Assembly (NCBI GenBank): GCA_964487045.1
Contig: CAZAOT010000003.1
Span: forward strand, 72,983-136,982
Direction of reading: 5' to 3'
From: an uncultured Candidatus Saccharibacteria bacterium
GTDB taxonomy: Bacteria; Patescibacteriota; UBA1384; DTJR01
DNA length: 64,000 nucleotides
In this document: one piece after another, positions 1,748-33,348 of the stretch
How the letters are laid out: each line of letters opens with the position of its first letter
How positions within the stretch are numbered: position 1 is the first letter of the stretch
Notes under the pieces: generated by a model
What the model was told of the DNA's origin: nothing
The model's database searches: none
The model's input: only the letters and a program-made list of their open reading frames with translations
Position numbers and translations under genes: made by a program

Positions 1748-1787
1748 AATTCCCACAGCGATATTATTCTGATTGCGGAGGCCTACT

Positions 1788-2111
1788 ATGTCCGACCTTT
1801 CTGCTGTCGCTAGTCGTGTTGTTGGGGGTGTTCTTCTGACTCGGACTCCAGGCAATATCTTGCGCTGGGGGGCATTCCGGGTCGTAAATGCTACGACCAA
1901 CCCGGTTGGGTCGTTGCAGTTGGAGATTGAAGCAGTAGAGCCCCCTTTCAAGCAGTTTGAAGGGCGCTCGGTGGCGAAGGGGGTTTACGGCATGGGGCGG
2001 ATGTTCCGAAACCGAGGCAATCCGCCCAAGTATGACGGGAAGATAATTCGGCTGGAGGATCCTCTGCTGATCGCTGGCTATGATCCGGCGCCGATGATCT
2101 TTCTGATCTAG
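1788..2111 (+). CDS. Hypothetical protein on GC-rich foreign-composition cassette a (ATG at 1788 after RBS GCGGAGG; the track start at 1773 is TTG)
   Basis: Abrupt GC jump at ~1750; promoter-like TTGATG-N17-TAAAAT at 1725-1753; strong hairpin terminator follows. Confidence 0.45.
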   Translation: MSDLSAVASRVVGGVLLTRTPGNILRWGAFRVVNATTNPVGSLQLEIEAVEPPFKQFEGRSVAKGVYGMGRMFRNRGNPPKYDGKIIRLEDPLLIAGYDPAPMIFLI

Positions 2112-2185: not shown

Positions 2186-2509
2186 TTACTTCTTTGCGGC
2201 TTTTTTGACTTTGTCGTAGCCTTCTTCTAGCTCTGCCTGAATCTCTTTAGCTTGTTTAATGGTAATTTTCTTACCTTTTTCGTATGTTCCTACTACTTTC
2301 TTGACCGCGTCCTTGTAAGTGTCCTTGGTAAAATCTCCAGCTTTTTCAAGCTCAGCAGCGATTTTATCTTTCATTTCCTCTAGATAGTTAGCGATATCAG
2401 CTCGAGTCTCTTTGCCCGACTTTGGAGCAAACAAAATACCGGCGACTGCTCCGGCCAATGCGCCAACTGCTAGTCCTACTCCTACACCCTTCATCGTTTT
2501 CTTGTCCAT
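2186..2509 (-). CDS. YtxH-family protein (N-terminal TM helix, APKSGKETR motif, C-terminal KE-rich coiled region)
   Basis: Motif FAPKSGKETRADI is characteristic of the YtxH/DUF948-type general stress family. Confidence 0.6.
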   Translation of the reverse strand: MDKKTMKGVGVGLAVGALAGAVAGILFAPKSGKETRADIANYLEEMKDKIAAELEKAGDFTKDTYKDAVKKVVGTYEKGKKITIKQAKEIQAELEEGYDKVKKAAKK

Positions 2510-2583
2510 CGTTTCCTTTCGTTAATTGATTTGATTATAGCACAATAGTCAAAGGCCGCCTCGTTTATGAAAACTCGGCGGCC

Positions 2584-3657
2584 CTAGGATTTGCCCCAAT
2601 CGAGATCGGGGTCTTCGAGGTCGAATGATCGTCCGCGGATGAATGGATAGATGCGGGTGATCGAGAGGTTGAGGTGCTCAATGGTTTCACGGCTGAGGAT
2701 TGGCTTGGGCTTGTTGCGAAGTGCCCCGAACAACCGATGGACTTCATAGTCATTCATCTGCAGCAGCAGAAGCGTTGGATTGGCGTCTTGGAAATGCTCA
2801 GAAGACGAGATGAACTCATAACAGCGTTCAAGCTCGCTGGCAAACGGCTTGCGATTAGCGTTGAGCGGTACGTAACAGTTAGCGTACATCCAATCGCGTA
2901 GTCGCCAGAATTCCTTGGCTTCGTCGCTCTTAGAGAAACTGATCCGACCTACCGATGCCGATTCCCTTACCAGGGCATTTGCGAAGTTGAGCAGCCTCTC
3001 TTCCTTGGTTCGTCCGAAGCACATCGCTTGATGGTCGGCCTCTTCGAAGCCTGCTCCGATCCGCAAACCATCCTCGATGTCAGAGAACATGTAGATTTTG
3101 TCTACGATGTTCACCAGGCGAAACTCCTGAGGAAGCCATATGTACTTCTGCCGAGAAGTGCCTGAGTGGTGGTAGATTCCAAGCAGAGTTTCATAGGCCA
3201 GGTCGAGACCTTTGCCCGAGTGTTCAATTCTCTGTAGGTTCAGGCAGGCGATAATGCGGTGGTCGATCGTCAAACCACACAGCTTCGAGATTGTCTCCTC
3301 TCCAAAATGACCGAAGGGTGCGTGGCCGGTGTCATGCCCTAGCCCAACCGCTTCTGTCAAGTACTCATTTAGCTTGAGGAACCAGGCTATGAGCTTAGCG
3401 AGACTTGCAACCTCCATGATGTGAAGCAGTCGATCATTACTGGTCGATTCTTCTCTTCCGATGAAGACTTGGGTCGTTCCATGCTTGCGAAACAGGGACT
3501 CGCTATTGCCGACCCAGTAAGCATCCTCAATGAAGCCTCGCTTACCGGTTGGTCTCCTTCGCCCTCCCTCTTTCTTTGGTCGTCGTCCGCGACTCATCTC
3601 TTCTTGGAACCGTAGGTGCGCCAAGCACCCACGATATCTCTTGTCGAGGTTTAACAC
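2584..3657 (-). CDS. HD-domain phosphohydrolase, dGTP triphosphohydrolase-like (GTG start at 3657 after AAGGAGG); GC-rich cassette b
   Basis: Motif LGHDTGHAPFGHFGEE preceded by HIMEVASLAKLIA (dGTPase-like HD signature); promoter-like TTGAAT-N17-TACAAT upstream (minus) at ~3675-3705; GGCCGCC hairpin downstream at ~2530-2575. Confidence 0.6.
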   Translation of the reverse strand: MLNLDKRYRGCLAHLRFQEEMSRGRRPKKEGGRRRPTGKRGFIEDAYWVGNSESLFRKHGTTQVFIGREESTSNDRLLHIMEVASLAKLIAWFLKLNEYLTEAVGLGHDTGHAPFGHFGEETISKLCGLTIDHRIIACLNLQRIEHSGKGLDLAYETLLGIYHHSGTSRQKYIWLPQEFRLVNIVDKIYMFSDIEDGLRIGAGFEEADHQAMCFGRTKEERLLNFANALVRESASVGRISFSKSDEAKEFWRLRDWMYANCYVPLNANRKPFASELERCYEFISSSEHFQDANPTLLLLQMNDYEVHRLFGALRNKPKPILSRETIEHLNLSITRIYPFIRGRSFDLEDPDLDWGKS

Positions 3658-3728
3658 TAGGACGCACCTCCTTATCGTGGGCTGCCTAGGATTGTAGAGA
3701 ACTTATATTCTTAATTCAAGACCAAGTA

Positions 3729-4154
3729 TTATGAAGCGTCTTCTTTCGTTTCAACGTATCTGCCAAGATCATCACGATCTTCAGCCTTGGCGCCCTTTGG
3801 CAATAGTTTTACTGAAATTTTAAATTTTCGAGTCGAGCCGTCTTGATCGGTGATCATGTCAGTTTTCTTTTCATTATAAAAATCCATCAACTCGACCGAG
3901 AGAATATCTCTTAGGGTCTTTATCTCATCCAGGTTTTCCCTAATGTCTTCGGCGAGCTTGGCATTTCCTTCTTGATTAAAAATTGCATCTCTGACTTCTT
4001 TGCGTTTTTTTGCAGCCGATTTTGCCTCCTCGGCAATTTGAGTGTAGGAGGCATCATTTTCAAGGGCGGAGCGAAGTAGCTCTTTAGCTTTTTTATTTTC
4101 TTCTTCTAGTTTTTCAATAATTCCGATTCTTTCTTTGATGACCGATAAATCCAT
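3729..4154 (-). CDS. Hypothetical KE-rich protein (likely start MDLSV at 4154, RBS GGAGG 5 nt upstream)
   Basis: ORF; the internal ATG has a good SD; the upstream part of the track ORF overlaps a GC-rich palindrome. Confidence 0.4.
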   Translation of the reverse strand: MDLSVIKERIGIIEKLEEENKKAKELLRSALENDASYTQIAEEAKSAAKKRKEVRDAIFNQEGNAKLAEDIRENLDEIKTLRDILSVELMDFYNEKKTDMITDQDGSTRKFKISVKLLPKGAKAEDRDDLGRYVETKEDAS

Positions 4155-7130: not shown

Positions 7131-7245
7131 TTTCCCTCCTTATAACGATACAAATGCATTATAACATAATAACTTAAGTGTAAATGAAAAGAGAAAGGGC
7201 CGCCGTGTCGAATGACATGGCGGCCCTGGTTGTGCAGTGAGAGCT

Positions 7246-7968
7246 CTAGCTTGGTAGCTGAAGCGGAGTTAGATACTCAGCAGCTCTGGGAGTCGCCTTG
7301 ATGTCAGCTTTGTATCCATAGGTTCTCGCTGTCTCCAGATCCCAAGCGTAACTACCAGCGGGCTGAGTGGGCCTTGCGATGATTCGCGGGTCAAACCCTA
7401 TCTCATTTCCGGTCGTTGCCCAGTCGATATATGGGTTGATGTCAACTTCATACCGGAAAGGATCGGTCCGATCGCCGGCAGCAAGTGTAGCCAGCTCATC
7501 TAGACGATCGTCTGGCCAGTAAACCTTGCTTGTTGTCTGGCGGTTTTCGATCTCGACCCATTCATCGCCAACTGAGATGACTTCCGCTTCGTCGAAATGG
7601 ACAAATGCCTCTTGCGGAATCTCAATCTCCGGAAACATCAACTCCTCGGGACAGAGCTGTTCGAAGAAGGTCGTGCCAAGTAGCGTTATGCTGTCATCCC
7701 CACGTGGGATGACAAAGTAGGGCTGGTTTTCGTATGCGCCCCACTTCTGGCCAGGCCAGAGATAGCCAAGCGCCCAATCACCGTCTTTTTGCTGATAGAC
7801 GAGCCATGCCGCGCCGCTTCGAACTTCCCACGCTACTGAGCAAAAGTTGTGAAAAGCTGGTTCGGCTGGCCGCTCCGGTGATATCCTTAGCAGGAAAGAG
7901 CAGCACATGTCGGCTTTGTACATGAACGAGTCGATGATCCTTGGCCTAAACTGAAGCCGGTTTGGCAT
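7246..7968 (-). CDS. Hypothetical protein on GC-rich cassette c (ATG at 7968 after AAGGAGG-N5)
   Basis: GC-rich ORF; promoter-like TTGACT-N17-TACTAT upstream (minus) at ~8020-8050; hairpin AGGGCCGCC..GGCGGCCCT plus T-run downstream at ~7195-7240. Confidence 0.45.
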   Translation of the reverse strand: MPNRLQFRPRIIDSFMYKADMCCSFLLRISPERPAEPAFHNFCSVAWEVRSGAAWLVYQQKDGDWALGYLWPGQKWGAYENQPYFVIPRGDDSITLLGTTFFEQLCPEELMFPEIEIPQEAFVHFDEAEVISVGDEWVEIENRQTTSKVYWPDDRLDELATLAAGDRTDPFRYEVDINPYIDWATTGNEIGFDPRIIARPTQPAGSYAWDLETARTYGYKADIKATPRAAEYLTPLQLPS

Positions 7969-8059
7969 GTCTGCCTCCTTTTGTTCTTTCAAATGCTACA
8001 GGGTTGCATAAAGCTTGCCACTTTGCAGATAGTAAACGGGTCTTCTTATCTAGTCAAGA

Positions 8060-8581
8060 TTATTTATAAATATAGATCTTCGGAGAAGTATTCTTTTTTA
8101 ATGGTTTGCGCCCTGTGAAATTAAAGGTTAGGGACACAACGGAAGCATTTCGCTTTAAATTTTTAAAAATAATAGGTTCAATCTTAGCTAAGAGTTTTTC
8201 AAGTAGATAGACATAAATCAAATCAGCTTTGTTTATTAGGTTTTCGTATTTTAATATATTGCCGTAATAAATTTTAATATTTTTGGTTTGATGGTGAAGC
8301 GCAACATTTAATTTGGCGAGTATGAAATAGAAAGGGGAGATTTCGATGCCGATACCTTTTGCTCCAAACTCTTTGGCAGCAATAATCAAGCTTCGCGCAT
8401 TGCCACAGCCGAGATCGATGACCACTTGTCCAGATTTTAAGTAGGCCATCTCAAAAGCCTTTTTAATAATTTTTTCTTTAGCGTAAACCGTCGGTGCACC
8501 TGAAAAGGCGGAGATTAACAGAGAAATTTGCCAAATAAGTGCGATCAAAGCTAGAGTGATAAATAATATAGAAATAGTCAT
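8060..8581 (-). CDS. Class I SAM-dependent methyltransferase with an N-terminal TM helix
   Basis: Motif VIDLGCGNARSLIIAA (SAM-binding motif I); backbone composition. Confidence 0.55.
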   Translation of the reverse strand: MTISILFITLALIALIWQISLLISAFSGAPTVYAKEKIIKKAFEMAYLKSGQVVIDLGCGNARSLIIAAKEFGAKGIGIEISPFYFILAKLNVALHHQTKNIKIYYGNILKYENLINKADLIYVYLLEKLLAKIEPIIFKNLKRNASVVSLTFNFTGRKPLKKNTSPKIYIYK

Positions 8582-8678: not shown

Positions 8679-8939
8679 CTACCGGAGGTTTCGGCGCTGA
8701 TCCGCGGTGGGGTTCTTGCCCACGTTTGAGTTGCCGACCGTCCGCTTTCGCACGATCCAGTCGGCAAGGAGCACGAAGGCGCTGATCGTGGCAGTGATGG
8801 CAGTCATGTAGAGCGTCGGCTTGCTCTTAAACATGATGCCAAAAGCGATGAAAAGCGGGGTAGTGGGGAAGAGGAAGAATTTGAACAATCTCCTCTTTCC
8901 CTTGGTGAGAAAAGACTTCGGCTTGAGTGACTTCATCAT
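8679..8939 (-). CDS. Small 2-TM membrane protein on GC-rich cassette d1
   Basis: 86 aa, two hydrophobic segments; a terminator hairpin follows on the minus strand at ~8600-8640. Confidence 0.4.
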   Translation of the reverse strand: MMKSLKPKSFLTKGKRRLFKFFLFPTTPLFIAFGIMFKSKPTLYMTAITATISAFVLLADWIVRKRTVGNSNVGKNPTADQRRNLR

Positions 8940-8953
8940 AGTCCTCCCTGTTT

Positions 8954-9523
8954 CTAGCCCTTGCAGTCAGGGCATACGATCGTGATTTGGTTTCCTACGC
9001 CGGACCCTGTGTCCGGAATGAAGGGATCTCCACAGCGGAAGCAGTATCTGGGTTCACCTGCAACCAGCTTCTTGTCTGCATCCGAGCAGACCTTGCACTT
9101 GCGGGGATTCCAGAGGTTGCGTCTGCTTGGGGTATAAGCACCGCAATGTGGGCAGTAGAAGTGTGTCATTAGGCGTTGCCCAGTGCTCTTGGCGACAGGC
9201 GGGATCCAGCGCTTGATCGTGAAGCGCTGCTCCAAACCAGGGTGCAACTCTACCGTAGCGCCGTGGCCGCTGGTAGCTCGGACAGCAAAGCCGTTTTCCA
9301 GAAAGAGGTTCGCTATCTGCGCGAGTTCGCCCAGAGGTTCCTGGTTGAGGGCAGTTGCCAACTCAACATAGCATAGTTCTTCTGGAATGCTAGCGGCAGG
9401 CTGGTTGATTTCGACAGCGATACGAGCTTGCTGCTCCTCGGGTAGATTTGCCAATAAGGCAGTAATCCGCCCCTTGAGCGCGTCTGCTTCTTGGCTTGTA
9501 CTGGTGACTCGGGCGCGGATCAT
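8954..9523 (-). CDS. Zinc-ribbon protein with four CxxC pairs (CPHC..CKVC..CFRC..CPDC), GC-rich cassette d1
   Basis: Cys motifs read from the translation; a perfect TTGACA-N17-TATAAT promoter sits upstream (minus) at ~9555-9585. Confidence 0.45.
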   Translation of the reverse strand: MIRARVTSTSQEADALKGRITALLANLPEEQQARIAVEINQPAASIPEELCYVELATALNQEPLGELAQIANLFLENGFAVRATSGHGATVELHPGLEQRFTIKRWIPPVAKSTGQRLMTHFYCPHCGAYTPSRRNLWNPRKCKVCSDADKKLVAGEPRYCFRCGDPFIPDTGSGVGNQITIVCPDCKG

Positions 9524-9611
9524 GGTTGCTCCCTATCCTTTTTGGTATGTAAAGGTTCGAACGAACGTTTGATTATATTTGAATTACGTCCGAATGTCAA
9601 TAATTAAGTAC

Positions 9612-9633
9612 AAGGGACGCCGGAGGGGCGTCC
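9612..9633 (-). terminator. Hairpin AGGGACGCC-GGAG-GGCGTCCCT just downstream of the 9638 stop (minus), followed by T-rich sequence
   Basis: Perfect 9-bp stem. Confidence 0.45.
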
Positions 9634-9637
9634 CTGA

Positions 9638-9919
9638 TCAGAGCCAGCAGTCGTGGCGAGTGATGATATTTCCGTCATCGCCAATACTGCCAACTTTGCA
9701 TGTTCTTCCGAGACGGCGAAAGCCTCTCATTGCAGGAGCAAATGCGGCTGCACCTAACAATATATAGAAGCTGGTACCAGATATGCCCGAGATGGTAGCG
9801 AAAAGCCAGAACATCTTGGGGTAGCAGATCGCTACAGTCGTTGAAGTGTACGCAACCCCTTTGAGAAGGGGAGCGAGAACGATCGGTCGTGAAACTAATG
9901 ACAGAATTCGACTGATCAT
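9638..9919 (-). CDS. Small hydrophobic protein on GC-rich cassette d2
   Basis: ORF with RBS GGAAGGAG and promoter-like TTGAAA-N17-TAATTT upstream; its own terminator. Confidence 0.35.
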   Translation of the reverse strand: MISRILSLVSRPIVLAPLLKGVAYTSTTVAICYPKMFWLFATISGISGTSFYILLGAAAFAPAMRGFRRLGRTCKVGSIGDDGNIITRHDCWL

Positions 9920-10074: not shown

Positions 10075-10149
10075 GGGCCTGTAGCTCAGTGGTAGAGCAG
10101 TTGCCTTTTAAGCAACGTGTCGTGGGTTCGATACCCACCAGGCCCTCCA
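10075..10149 (+). tRNA. tRNA-Lys (anticodon UUU at 10107-10109), CCA encoded
   Basis: Cloverleaf folded by hand: acceptor GGGCCUG/CAGGCCC, D-arm GCUC/GAGC, anticodon stem GUUGC/GCAAC with loop CUUUUAA, T-arm GUGGG-UUCGAUA-CCCAC. Confidence 0.85.
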
Positions 10150-10341: not shown

Positions 10342-10761
10342 ATGAGTAAGCGCATCCTGGTGGTTGATGATGAGCGCCACATCGTCCGTCTGGTTAAGCT
10401 CAACCTGGAACGCGCCGGCGGCTATGACGTCCTGACAGCGTACGACGGGATCGAGGCTCTGGGCAAAGTCAAGACCGAGAGCCCCGATATGGTGGTGCTC
10501 GACATCATGATGCCCCGGATGGACGGTTACGAAGTACTGCGTAACTTGCAAGCAGATCCCAGCTGCCAGAACATACCCGTGATCATGCTGACCGGCAAGG
10601 ACCAGGACGCCGACTTCTTCAAGGCCTGGGCCAGTGGGTTGAGGGCATATATGACAAAGCCCTTTGATCCCCAAGAATTGCTGACATTCATCCAACGGAT
10701 CTTCGAGGCCGATCAAATCGGGTATGGGGATGATACAGATGATTCGTGCTTTGAAGTGTAA
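10342..10761 (+). CDS. Stand-alone response-regulator receiver (CheY-like) domain protein, GC-rich cassette e
   Basis: VVDDE...D...DIMMP..DG...LTGK receiver signature; 139 aa; no output domain; no kinase in the window. Confidence 0.7.
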   Translation: MSKRILVVDDERHIVRLVKLNLERAGGYDVLTAYDGIEALGKVKTESPDMVVLDIMMPRMDGYEVLRNLQADPSCQNIPVIMLTGKDQDADFFKAWASGLRAYMTKPFDPQELLTFIQRIFEADQIGYGDDTDDSCFEV

Positions 10762-13953: not shown

Positions 13954-14070
13954 ATGATTCGAAACGTTGCGATTATTGCTCATGTAGACCCCACACCGCT
14001 CCTTACTGCAAAACGGATTCCATCCTGTTATTGCAGTGCGTCAGGTCGAGGGGCGAGAGATGACAAATAA
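13954..14070 (+). CDS. Orphan leader ORF of 38 aa: displaced typA-like N-terminus (MIRNVAIIAHVD) fused in frame to the repeat-encoded peptide PTPLLTAKRIPSCYCSASGRGARDDK
   Basis: SD AAGGAGGG upstream; codons differ from the real typA N-terminus only at synonymous positions (6 of 6 differences). Confidence 0.45.
   Translation: MIRNVAIIAHVDPTPLLTAKRIPSCYCSASGRGARDDK
13989..14056. repeat. Copy A of the ~68-bp structured repeat: CCCCACACCGCTCCTTACTGCAAAACGGATTCCATCCTGTTATTGCAGTGCGTCAGGTCGAGGGGCGAG
   Basis: Flanked by the 13-bp direct repeat GCTCATGTAGACC at 13978-13990 and 14118-14130. Confidence 0.8.
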
Positions 14071-14081
14071 AATTTTGCCAA

Positions 14082-15902
14082 ATGGATATGAATAAAATTA
14101 GAAATGTAGCTATCATAGCTCATGTAGACCACGGAAAGACCACGCTTGTCGATGGTCTATTAAAGCAGTCCCATACTTTTCGTGACAACCAAGCCGAGAT
14201 GAATCAGACGCTCATTATGGACTCAAACGATCAGGAGAGAGAGCGCGGAATTACAATTTTGGCTAAAAATACCGCAGTAAATTACAAAGATACTAAAATT
14301 AATATTATTGATACTCCTGGCCACGCCGATTTCGGTGGGGAGGTGGAGCGAACGCTCAATATGGCAGATGGCGCGATCCTTGTAGTTGATGCTCAAGAAG
14401 GACCAATGCCTCAAACAAAGTTTGTTTTGAAAAAAGCGCTTGATTTAGGGCTAAAGATTATTGTAGTAATAAACAAAATTGATAAGAAAAATGCGCAAGT
14501 TGAAAGTGTTATAGAAAGAACTTCAGATCTATTTCTTGATTTAGCTTCTGATGAGTCACAGCTCGAATTTCCAATTTTGTTTTCAATTGCCAAGCAAGGT
14601 AAGGCTTGGAGCGAAATGCCACAGAATTTTGAAGAAGACGGTGATCTTTCGAAAATTTTTGAAGCAATTTTGCAGTATATTCCTGCGCCAAAAGTCGAAG
14701 AGGGTCCATTTCAGATGCTTGTATCGGCCTTGGATTGGGATAGCTATCAGGGAAAATACGCAATCGGAAAAATTTCAAGAGGAAAAGCGATGGCTGGTCT
14801 TCAGGTGAGTTTGGTAAATGAAGATGGCGTAAAAGAAAATACTCGAATTGATAAGATTTTTGTTAGCAGCGGTTTGGTCAAACAAGAAGTTAAGGAAGCC
14901 GTGTGTGGCGACATTGTTTCAATTACCGGAATTAAGAACGCTGGAATTGGCGAAACAATCGCTGATCAGACGAGTCCCGAGGCTCTGCCGGGCATAAGTA
15001 TAGAAGAGCCGACCCTTTCGATGGCAATTTCAGCCAATACTTCGCCATTTGCTGGCAAGGAAGGTAAGTTTGTTACTGGCCGACAAATTTTAGACAGAAT
15101 TAAAAAAGAACTAGAGACAAACGTTTCGCTAAAATTTAAACAGGGCGAGGAAGGCGAATATATTCTCTCTGGCCGAGGCGAACTTCACTTGTCCGTCTTT
15201 ATTGAAACTCTTCGTAGAGAAGGTTTTGAGCTTCAAGTTGGTAAGCCACAGGTTATTATCAAAGAGATTGATGGCATTAAGAGCGAACCACTTGAAGAAT
15301 TAACGGTTGATGTCGAAGATCAGTATGTAAATAACGTGATCGCCGAGGTTATAAGACGAAAAGGTGTTTTGCATCATCAGAACCCACTTCTTGATGGCAC
15401 GACCAGGCTTATTTTTGAAATTACAACGCGTGGAATGCTCGGTCTTAGAAGCCAACTAATGACTCTTTCGCGCGGAACAGCTGTCGCTAACTCGATATTT
15501 TTAAGATTTGAAAAAGTTATGAGCGAAATTCCAAGACTTCGAAACGGAGTTTTGATCGCTTCTGAAGATGGCAAGGCTGTAACTTATGGGCTTGATATAG
15601 CTCAGGGCCGAGGAATCACATTTATCGAGCCACAACAGCAAGTCTATAAAGGTATGATTATCGGGCTTAATTCAAAAGAGTCTGATATCGAAATCAATGT
15701 AGCCAAAGAGAAGCATTTGACCAATATTCGAGCTGCTTCTTCTGATATGACCACGGTTTTGACCCCAGCAACAATTTTGTCACTTGAACAATGTATTGAC
15801 TTTTTGGAAGATGACGAGCTTCTTGAGGTTACTCCAACGTCACTTCGACTTCGAAAGAAGATACTCGATCCAACGCAGCGAAATAGAGCTAGAATTCGCT
15901 AA
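14082..15902 (+). CDS. typA: Translational GTPase TypA/BipA (the true start may be ATG 14088, MNKIRNV...)
   Basis: AIIAHVDHGKTTLVD G1 motif, DTPGHADF, NKID; 606 aa. Confidence 0.85.
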   Translation: MDMNKIRNVAIIAHVDHGKTTLVDGLLKQSHTFRDNQAEMNQTLIMDSNDQERERGITILAKNTAVNYKDTKINIIDTPGHADFGGEVERTLNMADGAILVVDAQEGPMPQTKFVLKKALDLGLKIIVVINKIDKKNAQVESVIERTSDLFLDLASDESQLEFPILFSIAKQGKAWSEMPQNFEEDGDLSKIFEAILQYIPAPKVEEGPFQMLVSALDWDSYQGKYAIGKISRGKAMAGLQVSLVNEDGVKENTRIDKIFVSSGLVKQEVKEAVCGDIVSITGIKNAGIGETIADQTSPEALPGISIEEPTLSMAISANTSPFAGKEGKFVTGRQILDRIKKELETNVSLKFKQGEEGEYILSGRGELHLSVFIETLRREGFELQVGKPQVIIKEIDGIKSEPLEELTVDVEDQYVNNVIAEVIRRKGVLHHQNPLLDGTTRLIFEITTRGMLGLRSQLMTLSRGTAVANSIFLRFEKVMSEIPRLRNGVLIASEDGKAVTYGLDIAQGRGITFIEPQQQVYKGMIIGLNSKESDIEINVAKEKHLTNIRAASSDMTTVLTPATILSLEQCIDFLEDDELLEVTPTSLRLRKKILDPTQRNRARIR

Positions 15903-15946: not shown

Positions 15947-15988
15947 TTTCTATTGCTCTTTAACAAACAGGGAAAACGAAAGGAAGAC

Positions 15989-16219
15989 ATGCCGACGTCA
16001 ATCGAGACTAAGGCGAGGAATATCGATAGACACTTGCCGGAGATGATGTGCTTGGCGCACTCGTCCGGCTTGCCTTCGATCATCCTTCCGTTTGGCACTT
16101 TTGACCAGCCAACTCAGGAGAAGCTGCGTGACCTAGTGGCCGAGTACGCCAAAGGCAAGGGCCACAAGACGCGCAAGTTCTTGCATCAGACGCGCCTCTA
16201 TCTCGAGGTGAGTATCTAA
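15989..16219 (+). CDS. Small hypothetical protein, cassette f gene 1 (start MPTSIETK)
   Basis: RBS AAGGAAG; GC-rich. Confidence 0.4.
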   Translation: MPTSIETKARNIDRHLPEMMCLAHSSGLPSIILPFGTFDQPTQEKLRDLVAEYAKGKGHKTRKFLHQTRLYLEVSI

Positions 16220-16448: not shown

Positions 16449-16473
16449 GTTGGCCAAAATAGGGAGGCAGATT

Positions 16474-17739
16474 GTGGACAAAGAAGCGATCCAAGGCGCC
16501 CGCAGGGCGCTTCTGCTCAAGAAGCTTGAAGTAGCATCAACGACCAAGGAATGCACCCTTGCGTTCCAGGGTCTCAAGCTCTACAGAGATGACCTTTCGA
16601 TTGTCGCCACTCGTAAGAGAGCGATTGAGCTCGCAGCTTCGGCAGGCGACATGGATGAGGTTCGTCGCTTTCCGTATGATGTGGGTATCTTCTCTCTGGG
16701 AGATCAGGCTTCCGAGTTCTTTCGTAAGGCCATGCTGCTTTGCAGGCCTGAAGAAGTATACGACTTCACAGGCAACTTCGGCTATTACGCCGATGAAGTT
16801 GTTAGCTTCCTTGTCGAGGGGCTTACCGATCCGCTCAAGCTGACTCGACTAGCGATGCGACTCGGAGCGGAGGGTCTGCTTGAGCGCGGACAGGAAGTGA
16901 TCGCTCGGGCTGCTGAACTGGCTGCAAGCTGGGAAGTGTGCGGTTATGTCGGGACGATACACTATGCGCCGCTTCCGACAGGGTTTCTGACCATGGCCGT
17001 CCTTCTCGCTGAGGGGCAGAAGGGTTACGATGCTCCTCTCGAAGTTTGTGGGTGGATGAAGGCTTCGCTCAACGACCCGCTCGAATTCAGACAAGCAGCG
17101 GCTGTTGCCGAGCTGCTTGATGCGCCAAACAAGCGTATCAGGCGGGTAGCCGGAGAGCGGATCAGGCAGGCTTACCAGGAGAAACTGAGCGGCCAAGATG
17201 GCGACTTCTATATCCAAAGCGCCTGGAACGTCGTTTGCGATGCCCGCGATGCGCTTCCGGAACTGGCTGCAGAGCTGACCGCTGATCTCGTGGTGCGTCT
17301 GACAGATGCGGTACCAGCCTGTCAGGACTTTTCGGAGGCAAAGTCGCATCTTGAAGTCGCTTCCGCAATGGAGGACTTCGGGATCGATGGAGTCTACTGG
17401 CCGGCAGCCATGCGTGCGATGGAGCTGGCAGAGGGCTGTGATGATATCCTGGCGTTGGTGCGCCTTGGCATTCATGTCCAGGAGCTCACCGAGGCTGTCC
17501 TGGTAATGGCTGCAACCGAAGATGATATCATTGCAGTCATACAGCGCAACCCGAACTTCTCTGGTGAGTGGACGTTGCCTCTTTGCGAGCGGATCTTCGA
17601 CTATCGGCGCCAGAGGGCGCAGACGATCGAGGACTTCATGATTCTGCATCACCTGACCAAGGACCCGGTCAAACTGGCCGAGGTCGAGGATCGCATCCAG
17701 GAGCTCATCGCTCCATACCATACCGAGCCTGAGGAGTAA
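16474..17739 (+). CDS. Hypothetical alpha-helical 421-aa protein, cassette f gene 3 (likely GTG start after AGGGAGG)
   Basis: Long GC-rich ORF; the antisense ORF 16849..17754 is judged spurious. Confidence 0.45.
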   Translation: MDKEAIQGARRALLLKKLEVASTTKECTLAFQGLKLYRDDLSIVATRKRAIELAASAGDMDEVRRFPYDVGIFSLGDQASEFFRKAMLLCRPEEVYDFTGNFGYYADEVVSFLVEGLTDPLKLTRLAMRLGAEGLLERGQEVIARAAELAASWEVCGYVGTIHYAPLPTGFLTMAVLLAEGQKGYDAPLEVCGWMKASLNDPLEFRQAAAVAELLDAPNKRIRRVAGERIRQAYQEKLSGQDGDFYIQSAWNVVCDARDALPELAAELTADLVVRLTDAVPACQDFSEAKSHLEVASAMEDFGIDGVYWPAAMRAMELAEGCDDILALVRLGIHVQELTEAVLVMAATEDDIIAVIQRNPNFSGEWTLPLCERIFDYRRQRAQTIEDFMILHHLTKDPVKLAEVEDRIQELIAPYHTEPEE

Positions 17740-20209: not shown

Positions 20210-20390
20210 TACTATCTTAAAAATTTTTATTTATTATTTTCAATTTTTAATTGATTGGCCCATTTAGCTATTGAAATATTTAAAATAAGTCAATAACTCA
20301 ATCAATAACAAATATAAAATATTAAATCTTAAATAAAGAGAAGCGCATGATGTGCTTCTCTTCTTCCCGAAGTTGTTATCGTTCTAACAT

Positions 20391-20419
20391 TGACTTGTCT
20401 GCTGATTTTGTCTAATATC
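20391..20419 (+). promoter_or_regulatory. Consensus-like promoter TTGACT-N17-TAATAT for GC-rich cassette g
   Basis: Read directly. Confidence 0.45.
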
Positions 20420-20476
20420 TGCTTATCGGAGGCTTTGATCCTTCGGTATTTCTTCAAATCGGCAGGAGGGAGCGTC

Positions 20477-20851
20477 ATGCCGAGGGATTCGATTCTCTAC
20501 GAAAAAGCCAGGGCGAGGTGGGAGTATGCTTCACATCTTCCATCTCGCAGTACAGTCAGGCAGTATTCGCTCAAGTGTTTCGCATTAGTATACCCGGTCG
20601 AAGTTTTGCGGGAATACTGGCGTGTAGACGCGTTGTCGCGCCAGAGTCTAATGGTATCGTCTCACAGCTTTGCCCCTTCTCCCGCTGAACTTGCAGCCAT
20701 GGCAGAAGGGCGTGACCGTAATGAACGGCGCGCAAATCAAGCCAGGGCGAGACTCGAAAGGATGGCGACGGAGCACGGGGTGGACCTAGATGCGATGGCT
20801 GATGATATCGCATTCGTTTGGCACAACTGGAGTCTGCTTGAGCTCGAGTAG
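20477..20851 (+). CDS. Hypothetical protein on GC-rich cassette g (start MPRDS after GGAGGG)
   Basis: GC-rich ORF; terminator AAGGCGA..TCGCCTT plus T-run at 20868-20900. Confidence 0.4.
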   Translation: MPRDSILYEKARARWEYASHLPSRSTVRQYSLKCFALVYPVEVLREYWRVDALSRQSLMVSSHSFAPSPAELAAMAEGRDRNERRANQARARLERMATEHGVDLDAMADDIAFVWHNWSLLELE

Positions 20852-32404: not shown

Positions 32405-32440
32405 AGAGGAAAGCCCCCCGCCATGCGGCAGGGGGCCTTG
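32405..32440 (-). terminator. Terminator for cassette h on the minus strand (GGCCCCCTGCCGCATGGCGGGGGGC followed by TTTCCTCTTTTTT)
   Basis: Read on the reverse complement. Confidence 0.55.
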
Positions 32441-32461
32441 TTTCCCGGTGCGATGAAAGTC

Positions 32462-32908
32462 TCACCAGCGTCCCCCCGGGTAGGGGTTGTTGGCGCGCTC
32501 GAAGTTCCGCTGAGCGCGCTCCAGGTCTCGGTAGCCGCTCGACAGGTAGCCGAGCCGCCGCCGCTCCGCTTCGATGGCGGAGATTTGGTTGTTGTACCCA
32601 CCCTGAGGCAGGTACCCGCCTTGGTAGCTGTAGCCACCCTGGGCGACGTAGCCGTTGCCGCAGCCATAGTTGCGCTGCTGGCAACCGCAGATAGTGCCGA
32701 TCGGCCTGATTTGGAAGCAGGCCGAACAGCGGACGAGCTGCGCCTGCGGGGCGAAGTAACCGCCACCGCAGGTGGGCATCGGCATCGGGCGATAGCCCGG
32801 GCCGCACCCACCACCGCTGCCACCGACCGAGAGGATCACGGTGATCCTGGGGCCGGCGCTCGCCGTCGAAACGGCGGCGATTACGACGAGAACGATTGGC
32901 ATCGTCCT
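32462..32908 (-). CDS. Small secreted Gly/Cys/Tyr-rich protein (signal MRTMPIVLVVIAAVSTASA), GC-rich cassette h
   Basis: Chosen among overlapping frames in GC-rich DNA by signal peptide, downstream terminator, and CGCQQ/GGY repeats. Confidence 0.4.
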   Translation of the reverse strand, partial: RTMPIVLVVIAAVSTASAGPRITVILSVGGSGGGCGPGYRPMPMPTCGGGYFAPQAQLVRCSACFQIRPIGTICGCQQRNYGCGNGYVAQGGYSYQGGYLPQGGYNNQISAIEAERRRLGYLSSGYRDLERAQRNFERANNPYPGGRW

Positions 32909-32988
32909 CATTTTGGACACCTCTTTCAAAGGTGCTGGAATTGACTGATTCGGGTAACTATACCACAATTACCCGAGAAAGTCAAGGT

Positions 32989-33348
32989 TCAGACCCTCAG
33001 CATCGCTCCCACGCTCAGCTCCATCTGAGTCTCGAGCCTATCAAGTGAGCAATATGCCCTCTGGATCGAAACCTCCCGAAGATCTCTCGGCTTTGCCAGG
33101 GAGATGACGTGTATCTCGCCGAGTTCATGCTCCTCAAGTGTATCAACAGCAGTTGTGTGACCTTCATTGCAGATAATCAGGTAAGGTCCTTCGCACTTGA
33201 GAGCGAAGATCTCCCGAATATCTCTTCCGTGGAATTCGTGAAGCAGGTATGTCAGCTCGAGGCGTTCAAGTACCGCCTTTACTTTTGAGCCGATCATCCG
33301 CTGATCCTCGACTGCCACGGCCGATACAACACAGATTTGCCTTTTCAA
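32989..33348 (-). CDS. Hypothetical protein, cassette h (TTG start at 33348 after AAGGAGG, or ATG at 33297)
   Basis: GC-rich ORF. Confidence 0.35.
   Translation of the reverse strand: MKRQICVVSAVAVEDQRMIGSKVKAVLERLELTYLLHEFHGRDIREIFALKCEGPYLIICNEGHTTAVDTLEEHELGEIHVISLAKPRDLREVSIQRAYCSLDRLETQMELSVGAMLRV

What the first reader, a model, noticed from the sequence alone, without database searches (positions are those of the whole stretch)
2584..3657. Short dGTPase-like HD phosphohydrolase carried on a foreign-composition cassette
The 357-aa GC-rich ORF has the dGTP-triphosphohydrolase-type HD signature (HIMEVA...LGHDTGHAPFGHFGEE). It sits alone on its own promoter/terminator cassette in an otherwise AT-rich genome. 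By established knowledge, dGTPase-family enzymes can act as nucleotide-depletion anti-phage defence. A horizontally acquired stand-alone copy is therefore a candidate defence gene and not a housekeeping Dgt. It is flanked by the YtxH stress protein and another GC-rich small ORF.
Basis: partly seen in the sequence, partly recalled or inferred. Interest (0 to 1): 0.5.

Follow-up and report, generated by a model that had tools for sequence, protein, structure and literature searches.

The report
GC-rich dispensable dNTP hydrolase gene
This gene encodes an apparently intact enzyme of the known dNTP-hydrolysing (dGTPase/SAMHD1-like) class in what looks like a small-genome groundwater bacterium; it is compositionally odd and dispensable, but it is an old resident of its locus and shows no specific sign of being an anti-phage gene.

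Summary
A 357-aa ORF lies at 2584-3657 (-). It has 52% GC (GC3 0.61) against a background near 38-40%. It carries the HD/dGTPase signature, an RBS, a promoter-like site and a stable terminator hairpin.

The protein belongs to a large family of short dNTP triphosphohydrolases whose closest solved structure is Thermus TT1383. All catalytic residues are intact. It is far from the characterised anti-phage dGTPases: 43 bits against a cut-off of 400.

Other family members sit in housekeeping contexts (next to rnpA-dnaA-dnaN, BipA or PolA) with native GC. The window's gene is not a recent import. The order DeoC-betaCASP-SLOG-...-HD-YtxH is kept in relatives whose flanking genes are synonymously saturated, and the gene is GC-rich in all of them.

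The gene is nevertheless flexible. Two relatives have deleted it, one leaving a remnant. One relative carries an allele only 43% identical beside a 91%-identical YtxH. It is one of about ten GC-rich, mostly orphan, self-terminated ORFs in the window.

Most likely role: dNTP-pool control. Defence is not excluded.

The parts
2584..3657 (-). 357-aa short dNTP triphosphohydrolase (HD domain, TT1383/PRK01286-like). Proposed metal ligands are H79, H108, D109 and D186. The catalytic motif is G-H112-APFG-H117-FG-E120. The substrate motif is R57...T62-Q63-V64-F65.
3691..3719 (-). Promoter-like TTGAAT-17 nt-TACAAT upstream of the HD gene. The -10 box is conserved in the L101 remnant.
3667..3673 (-). Shine-Dalgarno AAGGAGG, nine nt before the GTG start. 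It is conserved in L101 and L098.
2551..2583 (-). Terminator-like hairpin with stem GGCCGCC...GGCGGCC plus an inner GUUU/AAAC stem, followed by UUU. It starts at the base after the stop codon.
2186..2509 (-). ytxH (107 aa). This conserved downstream neighbour has ordinary composition and its own extended -10 (TGCTATAAT) between the hairpin and its start. It was used as the anchor for the locus comparison.
3729..4154 (-). Conserved 141-aa hypothetical protein (called from 4154; the longest ORF runs to 4208). It is the upstream neighbour and has ordinary composition. In L100 and L101 it abuts ytxH directly.
1773..2111 (+). GC-rich orphan ORF (112 aa; 107 aa as called) convergent with ytxH. It shares a bidirectional terminator at 2132-2167. 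It is present with the HD gene in the window, the ENA contig and L098, and absent in L100 and L101.

Best explanation
The gene encodes a catalytically competent dNTP triphosphohydrolase (dNTP -> deoxynucleoside + triphosphate) of the short, probably hexameric TT1383/PRK01286 type. It belongs to a large, previously unnamed branch of that family. The few members with usable context come from Paceibacteria-titled genomes, contigs carrying bacterial housekeeping genes and one archaeal contig. The enzyme would use the H79/H108-D109/D186 metal site and the H112/H117/E120 catalytic residues, probably with allosteric control by dNTPs as in TT1383 (inferred). Its most likely job is trimming and balancing the dNTP pool. 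This would matter if, as reported for Patescibacteria in general, the organism lacks de novo nucleotide synthesis (not tested for this genome). At this locus it is a non-essential, fast-evolving 'flexible' gene with its own promoter and terminator. It has been resident since before the divergence of several relatives, it has been deleted in some, and it has been replaced or strongly diverged in one. Its high GC is a long-standing property shared with about ten other flexible ORFs in the window. It is not the mark of a recent import.
For: Enzyme identity. NCBIfam dGTPase models hit at up to 133 bits over residues 15-284. Pfam HD matches. The AlphaFold model has pLDDT 81 and pTM 0.86. Its best Foldseek match is full-length TT1383 2dqb, with TM 0.67 over 369 columns. 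All catalytic and metal residues are present in the window protein and invariant or nearly so across 157 family members.

Family size and contexts. The profile search found 1089 cluster representatives at E<=1e-30. Most of the 150 listed are ~350-370 aa matches over most of the profile. Members lie beside yidD-rnpA-rpmH-dnaA-dnaN, BipA/LeuRS and PolA, and in an archaeal contig with L15e/TBP/MCM. All of these have native GC.

Old residence. DeoC-betaCASP-SLOG-...-HD-YtxH is conserved in L094, the ENA 264-kb contig and L099, and HD-YtxH is conserved on the short contig L098. Four-fold sites of the flanking genes are at chance identity. The gene is GC-rich in every such locus, with GC3 0.58-0.69.

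Dispensability. L101 keeps only the promoter, RBS, about 30 codons and half of the terminator, and L100 keeps nothing.

Housekeeping precedents. Caulobacter Dgt promotes cell-cycle progression (PMC11071499). Distant homologues of the defence dGTPase are not enriched in defence islands (10.1101/2021.04.26.441389).
Against: No biochemical data exist. Scores lie far below every NCBIfam equivalog cut-off (133 against 393), so substrate specificity is unknown. Loss in relatives, a hyper-divergent allele in L098 and faster protein evolution than most neighbours (dN 0.195 against 0.05-0.18) are what one expects of conflict genes rather than of a core homeostasis enzyme. I could not see the rest of the genome, so I cannot say whether a second dNTPase exists. 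The cause of the maintained GC-richness is unexplained.
Confidence: 0.55

Rival explanations
1. It is a stand-alone anti-phage nucleotide-depletion effector. A dNTPase is held in check in uninfected cells and activated on infection to starve phage DNA synthesis. Its rapid divergence would be driven by phage-encoded inhibitors of the T7 Gp1.2 type.
For: The catalytic machinery is intact. Single-gene dGTPase defence exists (10.1101/2021.04.26.441389). The PADLOC dGTPase model hits at 74 bits. Presence and absence vary among relatives. The L098 allele is 43% identical beside a 91%-identical YtxH, with conserved 5' and 3' ends. The protein evolves faster than most neighbours. It has its own promoter and terminator.
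Against: It scores 43 bits against NF041026 antiphage_dGTPase (cut-off 400) and 35 bits against NF003701, in the N-terminal HD region only. The PADLOC match covers only residues 31-179. Foldseek ranks Sp-dGTPase 9p8w and CloA well below TT1383. No defence neighbours are present, only generic methyltransferase, receiver and NUDIX fold hits. No CloB-like nucleotidyltransferase is adjacent. Synteny is stable over deep divergence. Family members elsewhere sit in origin-of-replication and translation contexts. No close relatives occur in viral contigs.
Confidence: 0.25
2. It is a recently acquired foreign gene from a GC-rich donor outside the lineage that has not yet ameliorated. This is the literal 'foreign cassette' reading.
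For: GC3 is 0.61 against about 0.35 for neighbours. The gene is a discrete unit ending in a GC-rich hairpin. A GC-richer contig with native-GC family members occurs in a sample numbered adjacent to one that holds the window protein (SRR29243436 against SRR29243437).
Against: The same gene sits at the same site in L094, L006, L098 and L099 and is GC-rich in each, although the flanks are synonymously saturated. No flanking direct repeats were found, and no integrase or transposase turned up among the neighbouring genes that were searched against Pfam. The best matches among species-representative genomes are two Paceibacteria-titled MAGs (39% and 33%), only slightly ahead of other phyla at 30-37%.
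Confidence: 0.07
3. The alleles are periodically exchanged among members of the clade that differ in background GC, by homologous recombination in the conserved gene ends or flanks. The window's copy would then be a relatively recent import from a GC-richer sister lineage. This concerns the origin of the copy and is compatible with either physiological role.
For: Four-fold-site identity between the window and L094 is 0.45 against 0.28 by chance for HD (z=4.2), while bCASP, DeoC, YtxH and o159 are at chance. In L098, DNA similarity to the window stops about 45 nt inside the 3' end, and the 5' UTR and N-terminus are conserved. L094 and L098 have a higher background GC.
Against: SLOG also shows excess four-fold identity (z=2.9). 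Synonymous constraint would give the same signal. The gene is more GC-rich than its flanks even in the GC-richer relatives.
Confidence: 0.3

Closest known systems
Thermus thermophilus TT1383 dNTP triphosphohydrolase (PDB 2dqb) and the PRK01286-type short 'Dgt-like' proteins
   Same: Length is about 360 aa. The H...HD...D metal site, the GHxPFGHxGE catalytic motif and the N-terminal R...KTQV substrate motif are all present. The all-helical fold aligns end to end, with TM 0.67.
   Different: Sequence identity is only about 23%. The score of 133 bits lies far below the equivalog cut-off of 393. The C-terminal third does not match Pfam HD_assoc, although it aligns structurally. The N-terminus carries a basic Arg/Lys/Gly-rich stretch at residues 22-40. 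Oligomeric state and activators are untested.
Anti-phage dGTPase (Sp-dGTPase, PDB 9p8w; NCBIfam NF041026; PADLOC dGTPase)
   Same: It shares the same superfamily and catalytic residues. It is a single-gene unit and is patchily present among relatives.
   Different: It scores 43 bits against a cut-off of 400. It is about 14% identical with TM 0.52. It is about 100 aa shorter. It is not in a defence island. Tal et al. found defence-island enrichment only for homologues at least 45% identical to Sp-dGTPase (10.1101/2021.04.26.441389).
Clover system CloA dGTPase with CloB nucleotidyltransferase (PMC12265719)
   Same: It has an HD dNTPase fold. It could in principle be nucleotide-regulated.
   Different: No nucleotidyltransferase partner is adjacent in the window. 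Structural similarity is lower than to TT1383.
E. coli Dgt and Caulobacter Dgt (housekeeping dNTP-pool control)
   Same: The chemistry is presumably the same. Family members sit next to dnaA-dnaN and PolA, which suggests a replication-linked role.
   Different: E. coli Dgt is 505 aa, and the sequence match is confined to the N-terminal part of the protein (E=6e-4). The window copy is dispensable in relatives.

Membership tests
dGTPase/SAMHD1-type HD dNTP triphosphohydrolases (TT1383/PRK01286-like short form) | HD-domain metal quartet H...HD...D | tested here: met
   H79, H108-D109 and D186 are present and invariant in 157 family members. Pfam HD scores 30.4 bits against a cut-off of 22.
dGTPase/SAMHD1-type HD dNTP triphosphohydrolases (TT1383/PRK01286-like short form) | Catalytic His/Glu motif GHxPFGHxGE and N-terminal substrate motif R...KTQV | tested here: met
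   GHAPFGHFGEE spans residues 111-121. R57 and T62-Q63-V64 are conserved.
dGTPase/SAMHD1-type HD dNTP triphosphohydrolases (TT1383/PRK01286-like short form) | Full-length fold including the C-terminal helical region | tested here: met
   Foldseek gives 2dqb as best hit, with 369 aligned columns and TM 0.67. The model has pLDDT 81. Pfam HD_assoc is not detected by sequence.
dGTPase/SAMHD1-type HD dNTP triphosphohydrolases (TT1383/PRK01286-like short form) | Score above the NCBIfam equivalog or subfamily cut-off | tested here: not met
   The best score is 133.5 bits against 393 for NF002327. TIGR01353 scores 70 against 152. The protein is therefore a divergent branch, not an equivalog of a characterised enzyme.
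dGTPase/SAMHD1-type HD dNTP triphosphohydrolases (TT1383/PRK01286-like short form) | dNTP -> deoxynucleoside + PPPi activity and hexameric assembly | not testable with these tools
   This needs enzyme assays and SEC or cryo-EM.
Anti-phage dGTPase (Tal et al.; NF041026) | Sequence membership of the defence clade (NF041026 cut-off, or at least 45% identity to Sp-dGTPase) | tested here: not met
   It scores 43.2 bits against 400. phmmer to 9p8w gives E=2e-4. Identity in the Foldseek alignment is 14%.
Anti-phage dGTPase (Tal et al.; NF041026) | Location among defence genes or on a mobile element | tested here: not met
   PADLOC on 14 neighbouring proteins gives only weak generic-fold hits. No cassette-boundary repeats were found, and no integrase or transposase was found among the neighbours searched against Pfam. 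No close viral relatives exist.
Anti-phage dGTPase (Tal et al.; NF041026) | Variable presence among close relatives | tested here: met
   The gene is deleted in L100 and L101, and a divergent allele sits in L098.
Anti-phage dGTPase (Tal et al.; NF041026) | Phage-triggered dGTP depletion and protection | not testable with these tools
   This needs a phage challenge and dNTP measurements.
Clover (CloA-CloB) | Adjacent CloB nucleotidyltransferase | tested here: not met
   The neighbours are a 141-aa hypothetical protein and YtxH. Neither has a nucleotidyltransferase domain.
Recently acquired genomic island or cassette | Atypical composition | tested here: met
   GC3 is 0.61 against about 0.35.
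Recently acquired genomic island or cassette | Absent from the syntenic site of relatives because of recent insertion, with mobility signatures | tested here: not met
   The gene is present at the same site in L094, L006, L098 and L099. Its absence in L101 is a deletion with a remnant. No flanking repeats were found.

The most novel reading that the evidence does not exclude
The dNTPase is one of a class of single-gene, self-terminated, GC-rich 'flexible modules' scattered through an AT-rich genome of probable Patescibacteria (CPR) affiliation. These modules stay GC-rich despite saturating synonymous divergence, evolve faster than the core, and are swapped or deleted at fixed sites. On this reading they form the clade's conflict or adaptation gene pool. 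The dNTPase would then be a previously unrecognised anti-phage (or phage-inhibitor-chased) dNTPase branch. The sustained GC would reflect recombination-linked biased gene conversion or selection.
Probability: 0.15. Interest if true: 0.6.

Novelty: new member of a known kind. Interest (0 to 1): 0.3.

Why it matters
In itself it adds a divergent, unannotated branch to the dNTP triphosphohydrolase family. Of the few members whose genomic context could be read, two lie in Paceibacteria-titled genomes and one in an archaeal contig. Patescibacteria are reported to lack known nucleotide biosynthesis pathways (PMC12455944). Knowing whether such an enzyme manages scavenged dNTPs or fights phage bears on how ultra-small symbionts run their nucleotide economy. 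There is also a practical point. Defence-finder pipelines may flag this protein on a partial HD-domain match. The evidence here says that call would be unsafe. The more intriguing by-product is the compositional mosaic: conserved, fast-evolving GC-rich single-gene units in an AT-rich genome. Ordinary amelioration theory does not predict this pattern.

Tried and rejected
1. Integron-like or repeat-bounded cassette. A window-wide direct-repeat search found no family marking the boundaries of GC-rich ORFs. Rejected.

2. RNA genes as the cause of the GC-rich patches. Rfam and ARAGORN find only tRNA-Lys at 10075-10149. Rejected.

3. Prophage origin. PHROGs on ten GC-rich ORFs gives only the generic HD and receiver-domain hits. 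The viral-contig scan gives only matches of 29-34% identity. Rejected.

4. Defence island. PADLOC on the neighbours gives only weak methyltransferase, receiver and NUDIX fold hits. Rejected.

5. Small orphan family. The word-indexed homologue search returned only 13 proteins. The exhaustive profile search showed more than 1000 cluster representatives. The first impression was an artefact of search sensitivity.

6. GC-rich donor. The NJ-tree neighbours P0155 and P0142 were looked up. One is AT-rich. The other is native in a contig of about 50% GC but is not close enough to be the donor. Inconclusive.

7. dN/dS for diversifying selection. dS is saturated, so the test is uninformative.

8. The organism's identity could not be pinned down. 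The window's own genome was not among the 80 loci returned from the species-representative collection. The CPR/Paceibacteria assignment therefore rests on the two best GTDB matches to this one gene and on the groundwater sample name of one related YtxH locus (L104). It remains an inference.

Full report
**1. The observation**

The ORF is real. It lies at 2584..3657 on the minus strand, is 357 aa long and contains HIMEVA...LGHDTGHAPFGHFGEE. It starts at GTG 3657, nine nt after AAGGAGG at 3673-3667.

- Its GC is 0.52, with GC1 0.56, GC2 0.39 and GC3 0.61.
- The AT-rich ORFs of the window have GC3 of 0.27-0.44, and the whole window is 40.9% GC.
- A sigma-70-like TTGAAT-17-TACAAT lies at 3719-3691. 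The scan count as such is not above chance.
- The -10 box, RBS and start codon are conserved in a relative's remnant.
- Directly after the stop codon comes a hairpin at 2554-2583, with stem GGCCGCC/GGCGGCC and an inner GUUU/AAAC stem. It folds at -28 kcal/mol with z=-4.4 and is followed by UUU.
- The extended -10 of ytxH (TGCTATAAT) follows the hairpin.

**2. What the protein is**

- Pfam sees only the HD domain, at 30 bits.
- NCBIfam places it nearest the PRK01286-type short dGTPase models. NF002327 scores 133.5 bits over residues 15-284, aligned to 19-294 of 345 model positions. This is far below every equivalog cut-off.
- The two anti-phage models score 43 and 35 bits, in the N-terminal region only.
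- PADLOC's dGTPase model matches residues 31-179 at 74 bits.
- By sequence the best solved relative is Thermus thermophilus TT1383 (2dqb, E=1.5e-16). E. coli Dgt and the Shewanella anti-phage dGTPase are marginal.
- An AlphaFold model built on ten family sequences has pLDDT 81 and pTM 0.86.
- Foldseek aligns that model end to end with 2dqb (369 columns, TM 0.67). It ranks the Vibrio, Leeuwenhoekiella and E. coli enzymes, CloA and Sp-dGTPase well below.
- The metal ligands H79, H108, D109 and D186 are present in the window protein. So are H112, H117 and E120, the R57...T62-Q63-V64 motif, and D193/D196. All are invariant or nearly so in 157 aligned family members.

TT1383 is a dNTP triphosphohydrolase stimulated by dATP and dTTP (Kondo et al. 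2004, as cited in PMC9257424). The enzyme assignment is therefore strong. The substrate range and regulation are inferred.

**3. The family**

The word-indexed search found only 13 relatives. The exhaustive profile search found 1089 cluster representatives at E<=1e-30. Most of the 150 listed are ~350-370 aa matches over most of the profile.

Among species-representative genomes, the two best matches are Candidatus Paceibacteria/Paceibacterota MAGs (39% and 33% identity). Ordinary short Dgt proteins of Thermoleophilia, Ruminococcaceae and others follow closely at 30-37%.

Family members whose contigs I could read lie in these contexts:
- next to Sua5 ... yidD-rnpA-rpmH-dnaA-dnaN, in two lineages;
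- directly after BipA and LeuRS;
- next to PolA, with a DGR nearby;
- in an archaeal contig with L15e, TBP, MCM and an ATP-dependent ligase.

In all of these the gene has the composition of its surroundings. No close relative is found in viral contigs. This is the profile of a chromosomal housekeeping-type gene family.

**4. The locus in relatives**

The window's arrangement is DeoC - beta-CASP nuclease - SLOG/LOG-like - 141-aa protein - HD - YtxH - (GC-rich ORF on the other strand).

| Locus | HD identity to window | Flank identity to window |
|---|---|---|
| L094 | 75.7% | 78-94% |
| ENA 264-kb contig | 74% | not measured; extends on to LepA and MurJ |
| L099 | 37% | YtxH 64%, SLOG 65%, DeoC 62%, beta-CASP 57% |
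| L098 | 43% | YtxH 91% |

Between the window and L094, synonymous sites of most flanking genes are saturated. NG86 dS is not computable, and four-fold-site identity is at chance for bCASP, DeoC, YtxH and o159. SLOG is an exception, with excess four-fold identity (z=2.9).

The HD gene is nevertheless GC-rich in every one of these loci. Its GC is 0.50-0.55 and its GC3 0.58-0.69, against flanks with GC3 of 0.32-0.59. A recent import that has simply not yet ameliorated is therefore excluded. No repeats mark the cassette boundaries, and no mobility gene turned up among the neighbouring genes that were searched.

**5. The gene is nevertheless flexible**

I anchored a metagenome search on YtxH. It recovered two relatives, L100 and L101, with YtxH 77-79% identical, in which the 141-aa gene abuts ytxH with no HD gene between them.

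- L101 still carries the HD promoter -10, the RBS, the GTG, about 30 codons and the 3' half of the terminator hairpin. This is an internal deletion of roughly 950 bp.
- L100 has lost everything up to the ytxH promoter.

In L098 the 5' UTR, the N-terminus (ERYRGCLAH...), the last ~45 nt and the terminator are recognisably the same as in the window. The body of the gene has no detectable DNA similarity and is 43% identical in protein, with all catalytic residues kept. This is either allele replacement by recombination in the conserved ends or strongly accelerated divergence.

Between the window and L094 the HD gene shows higher dN than most flanks (0.195). It also shows residual four-fold-site identity of 0.45 against 0.28 by chance (z=4.2), while most flanks are at chance. 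That fits either more recent exchange of this gene among clade members or synonymous constraint. I cannot separate the two.

**6. The wider pattern**

The HD gene is one of about ten or eleven GC-rich ORFs in the window, with GC3 of 0.50-0.79. They lie at 1773-2111, 7246-7992, 8679-8939, 8954-9523, 9638-9919, 10342-10761, 15953-16219, 16450-17739, 20390-20851, 32423-32944 and 32989-33348.

- Apart from the HD protein and a stand-alone receiver domain, none matches Pfam, PHROGs or PADLOC.
- Those that can be compared are conserved in place in L094 but are mostly more diverged (40-75% identity) than the AT-rich neighbours (78-94%).
- Most are followed by a strong GC-rich hairpin with a T run, whereas the AT-rich core genes mostly are not.
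- Two of these hairpins share the stem GGCCGCC...GGCGGCC (2 observed, 0.01 expected).

The rest of the window is ordinary chromosome, with DnaK, BipA, ComEC and RecG. I have no tested explanation for why this flexible fraction stays GC-rich. Candidates are exchange with GC-richer sister lineages, GC-biased gene conversion at recombining loci, and selection.

**7. Function**

The most likely reading (about 0.55) is a dNTP triphosphohydrolase that controls the dNTP pool.
- Patescibacteria generally lack known nucleotide biosynthesis pathways (PMC12455944). Whether that holds for this genome was not tested.
- Family members sit by dnaA-dnaN and PolA.
- A Dgt is known to affect cell-cycle progression in Caulobacter (PMC11071499).
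- The neighbouring DeoC, beta-CASP nuclease, LOG-like protein and NUDIX gene would fit a nucleotide-salvage theme. The linkage is not universal in the family, so I treat it as weak.

The defence reading (about 0.25) draws on dispensability, allele turnover and rapid protein evolution.
- It is not supported by clade membership, by neighbourhood or by any partner gene such as CloB (PMC12265719).
- Tal et al. themselves found that homologues below 45% identity to Sp-dGTPase are not enriched near defence genes (10.1101/2021.04.26.441389).

**8. Verdict**

The gene is a new, divergent member of a known enzyme kind, and overall interest is modest. The compositional mosaic and the allele turnover at a fixed site are the unexplained parts worth following up.

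Noticed in passing
window 1773-2111, 7246-7992, 8679-8939, 8954-9523, 9638-9919, 10342-10761, 15953-16219, 16450-17739, 20390-20851, 32423-32944, 32989-33348: About ten further GC-rich ORFs (GC3 0.50-0.79 against about 0.35) are scattered singly or in small groups through an AT-rich chromosome. Nearly all are orphans with no Pfam, PHROGs or PADLOC match. Those comparable in L094 are conserved in place, GC-rich there too, and mostly more diverged than the AT-rich neighbours. Most are followed by a strong GC hairpin plus T run. The cause of the maintained GC is unexplained.
   Followed up: partly
window 2554-2583 and 7198-7225: Two terminator-like hairpins share the identical stem GGCCGCC...GGCGGCC. 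Each follows a GC-rich ORF, the HD gene and the 248-aa orphan respectively (2 found, 0.01 expected). They may have a shared origin, or this may be coincidence among GC-rich terminators.
   Followed up: no
L101 4372-4613; L100 1043-1078: Relatives from one metagenome show two stages of loss of the HD gene. One keeps a remnant with promoter, RBS, about 30 codons and half of the terminator. The other has a clean deletion down to the ytxH promoter. The GC-rich ORF beyond ytxH is absent in both as well, replaced by a 250-259-aa ORF of ordinary composition that was not searched against any family library.
   Followed up: yes
L098 1-1093: The allele at the same site has a conserved 5' UTR, N-terminus, last ~45 nt and terminator. 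Its body is only 43% identical in protein, next to a YtxH 91% identical to the window's. The called start (320 aa) is too far downstream. A TTG after GGAGGTG gives a full-length protein of about 352 aa.
   Followed up: yes
window 10075-10149 with 8679-9919 and 10342-10761: The only tRNA in the window (tRNA-Lys, anticodon UUU) sits in the middle of the largest GC-rich block, between three GC-rich orphan ORFs and a GC-rich stand-alone response-regulator receiver protein. This position would be typical of island integration next to a tRNA. No integrase was seen.
   Followed up: no
window 13957-13990 and 14097-14130: A 34-nt stretch encoding the G1 motif at the start of the BipA/TypA gene (IRNVAIIAHVD) is repeated at 82% identity 140 nt upstream, outside the ORF. 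It may be the remnant of a second translational GTPase gene or of a duplication.
   Followed up: no
L095 7001-8101; L181 6001-7134 and 8511-9899: Members of the same dNTPase family occur in an archaeal contig of about 27% GC (ribosomal L15e, TBP, MCM, ATP-dependent ligase). Another occurs next to PolA in a contig of about 50% GC carrying bacterial housekeeping genes, which also carries a diversity-generating retroelement (bAvd + RT) 1.4 kb away.
   Followed up: partly
window 8060-8581: An AT-rich 173-aa SAM-methyltransferase lies within the GC-rich block. It is absent from the corresponding position in L094. Its best PADLOC hit is mad2 (52 bits), which probably reflects only the shared methyltransferase fold.
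   Followed up: no
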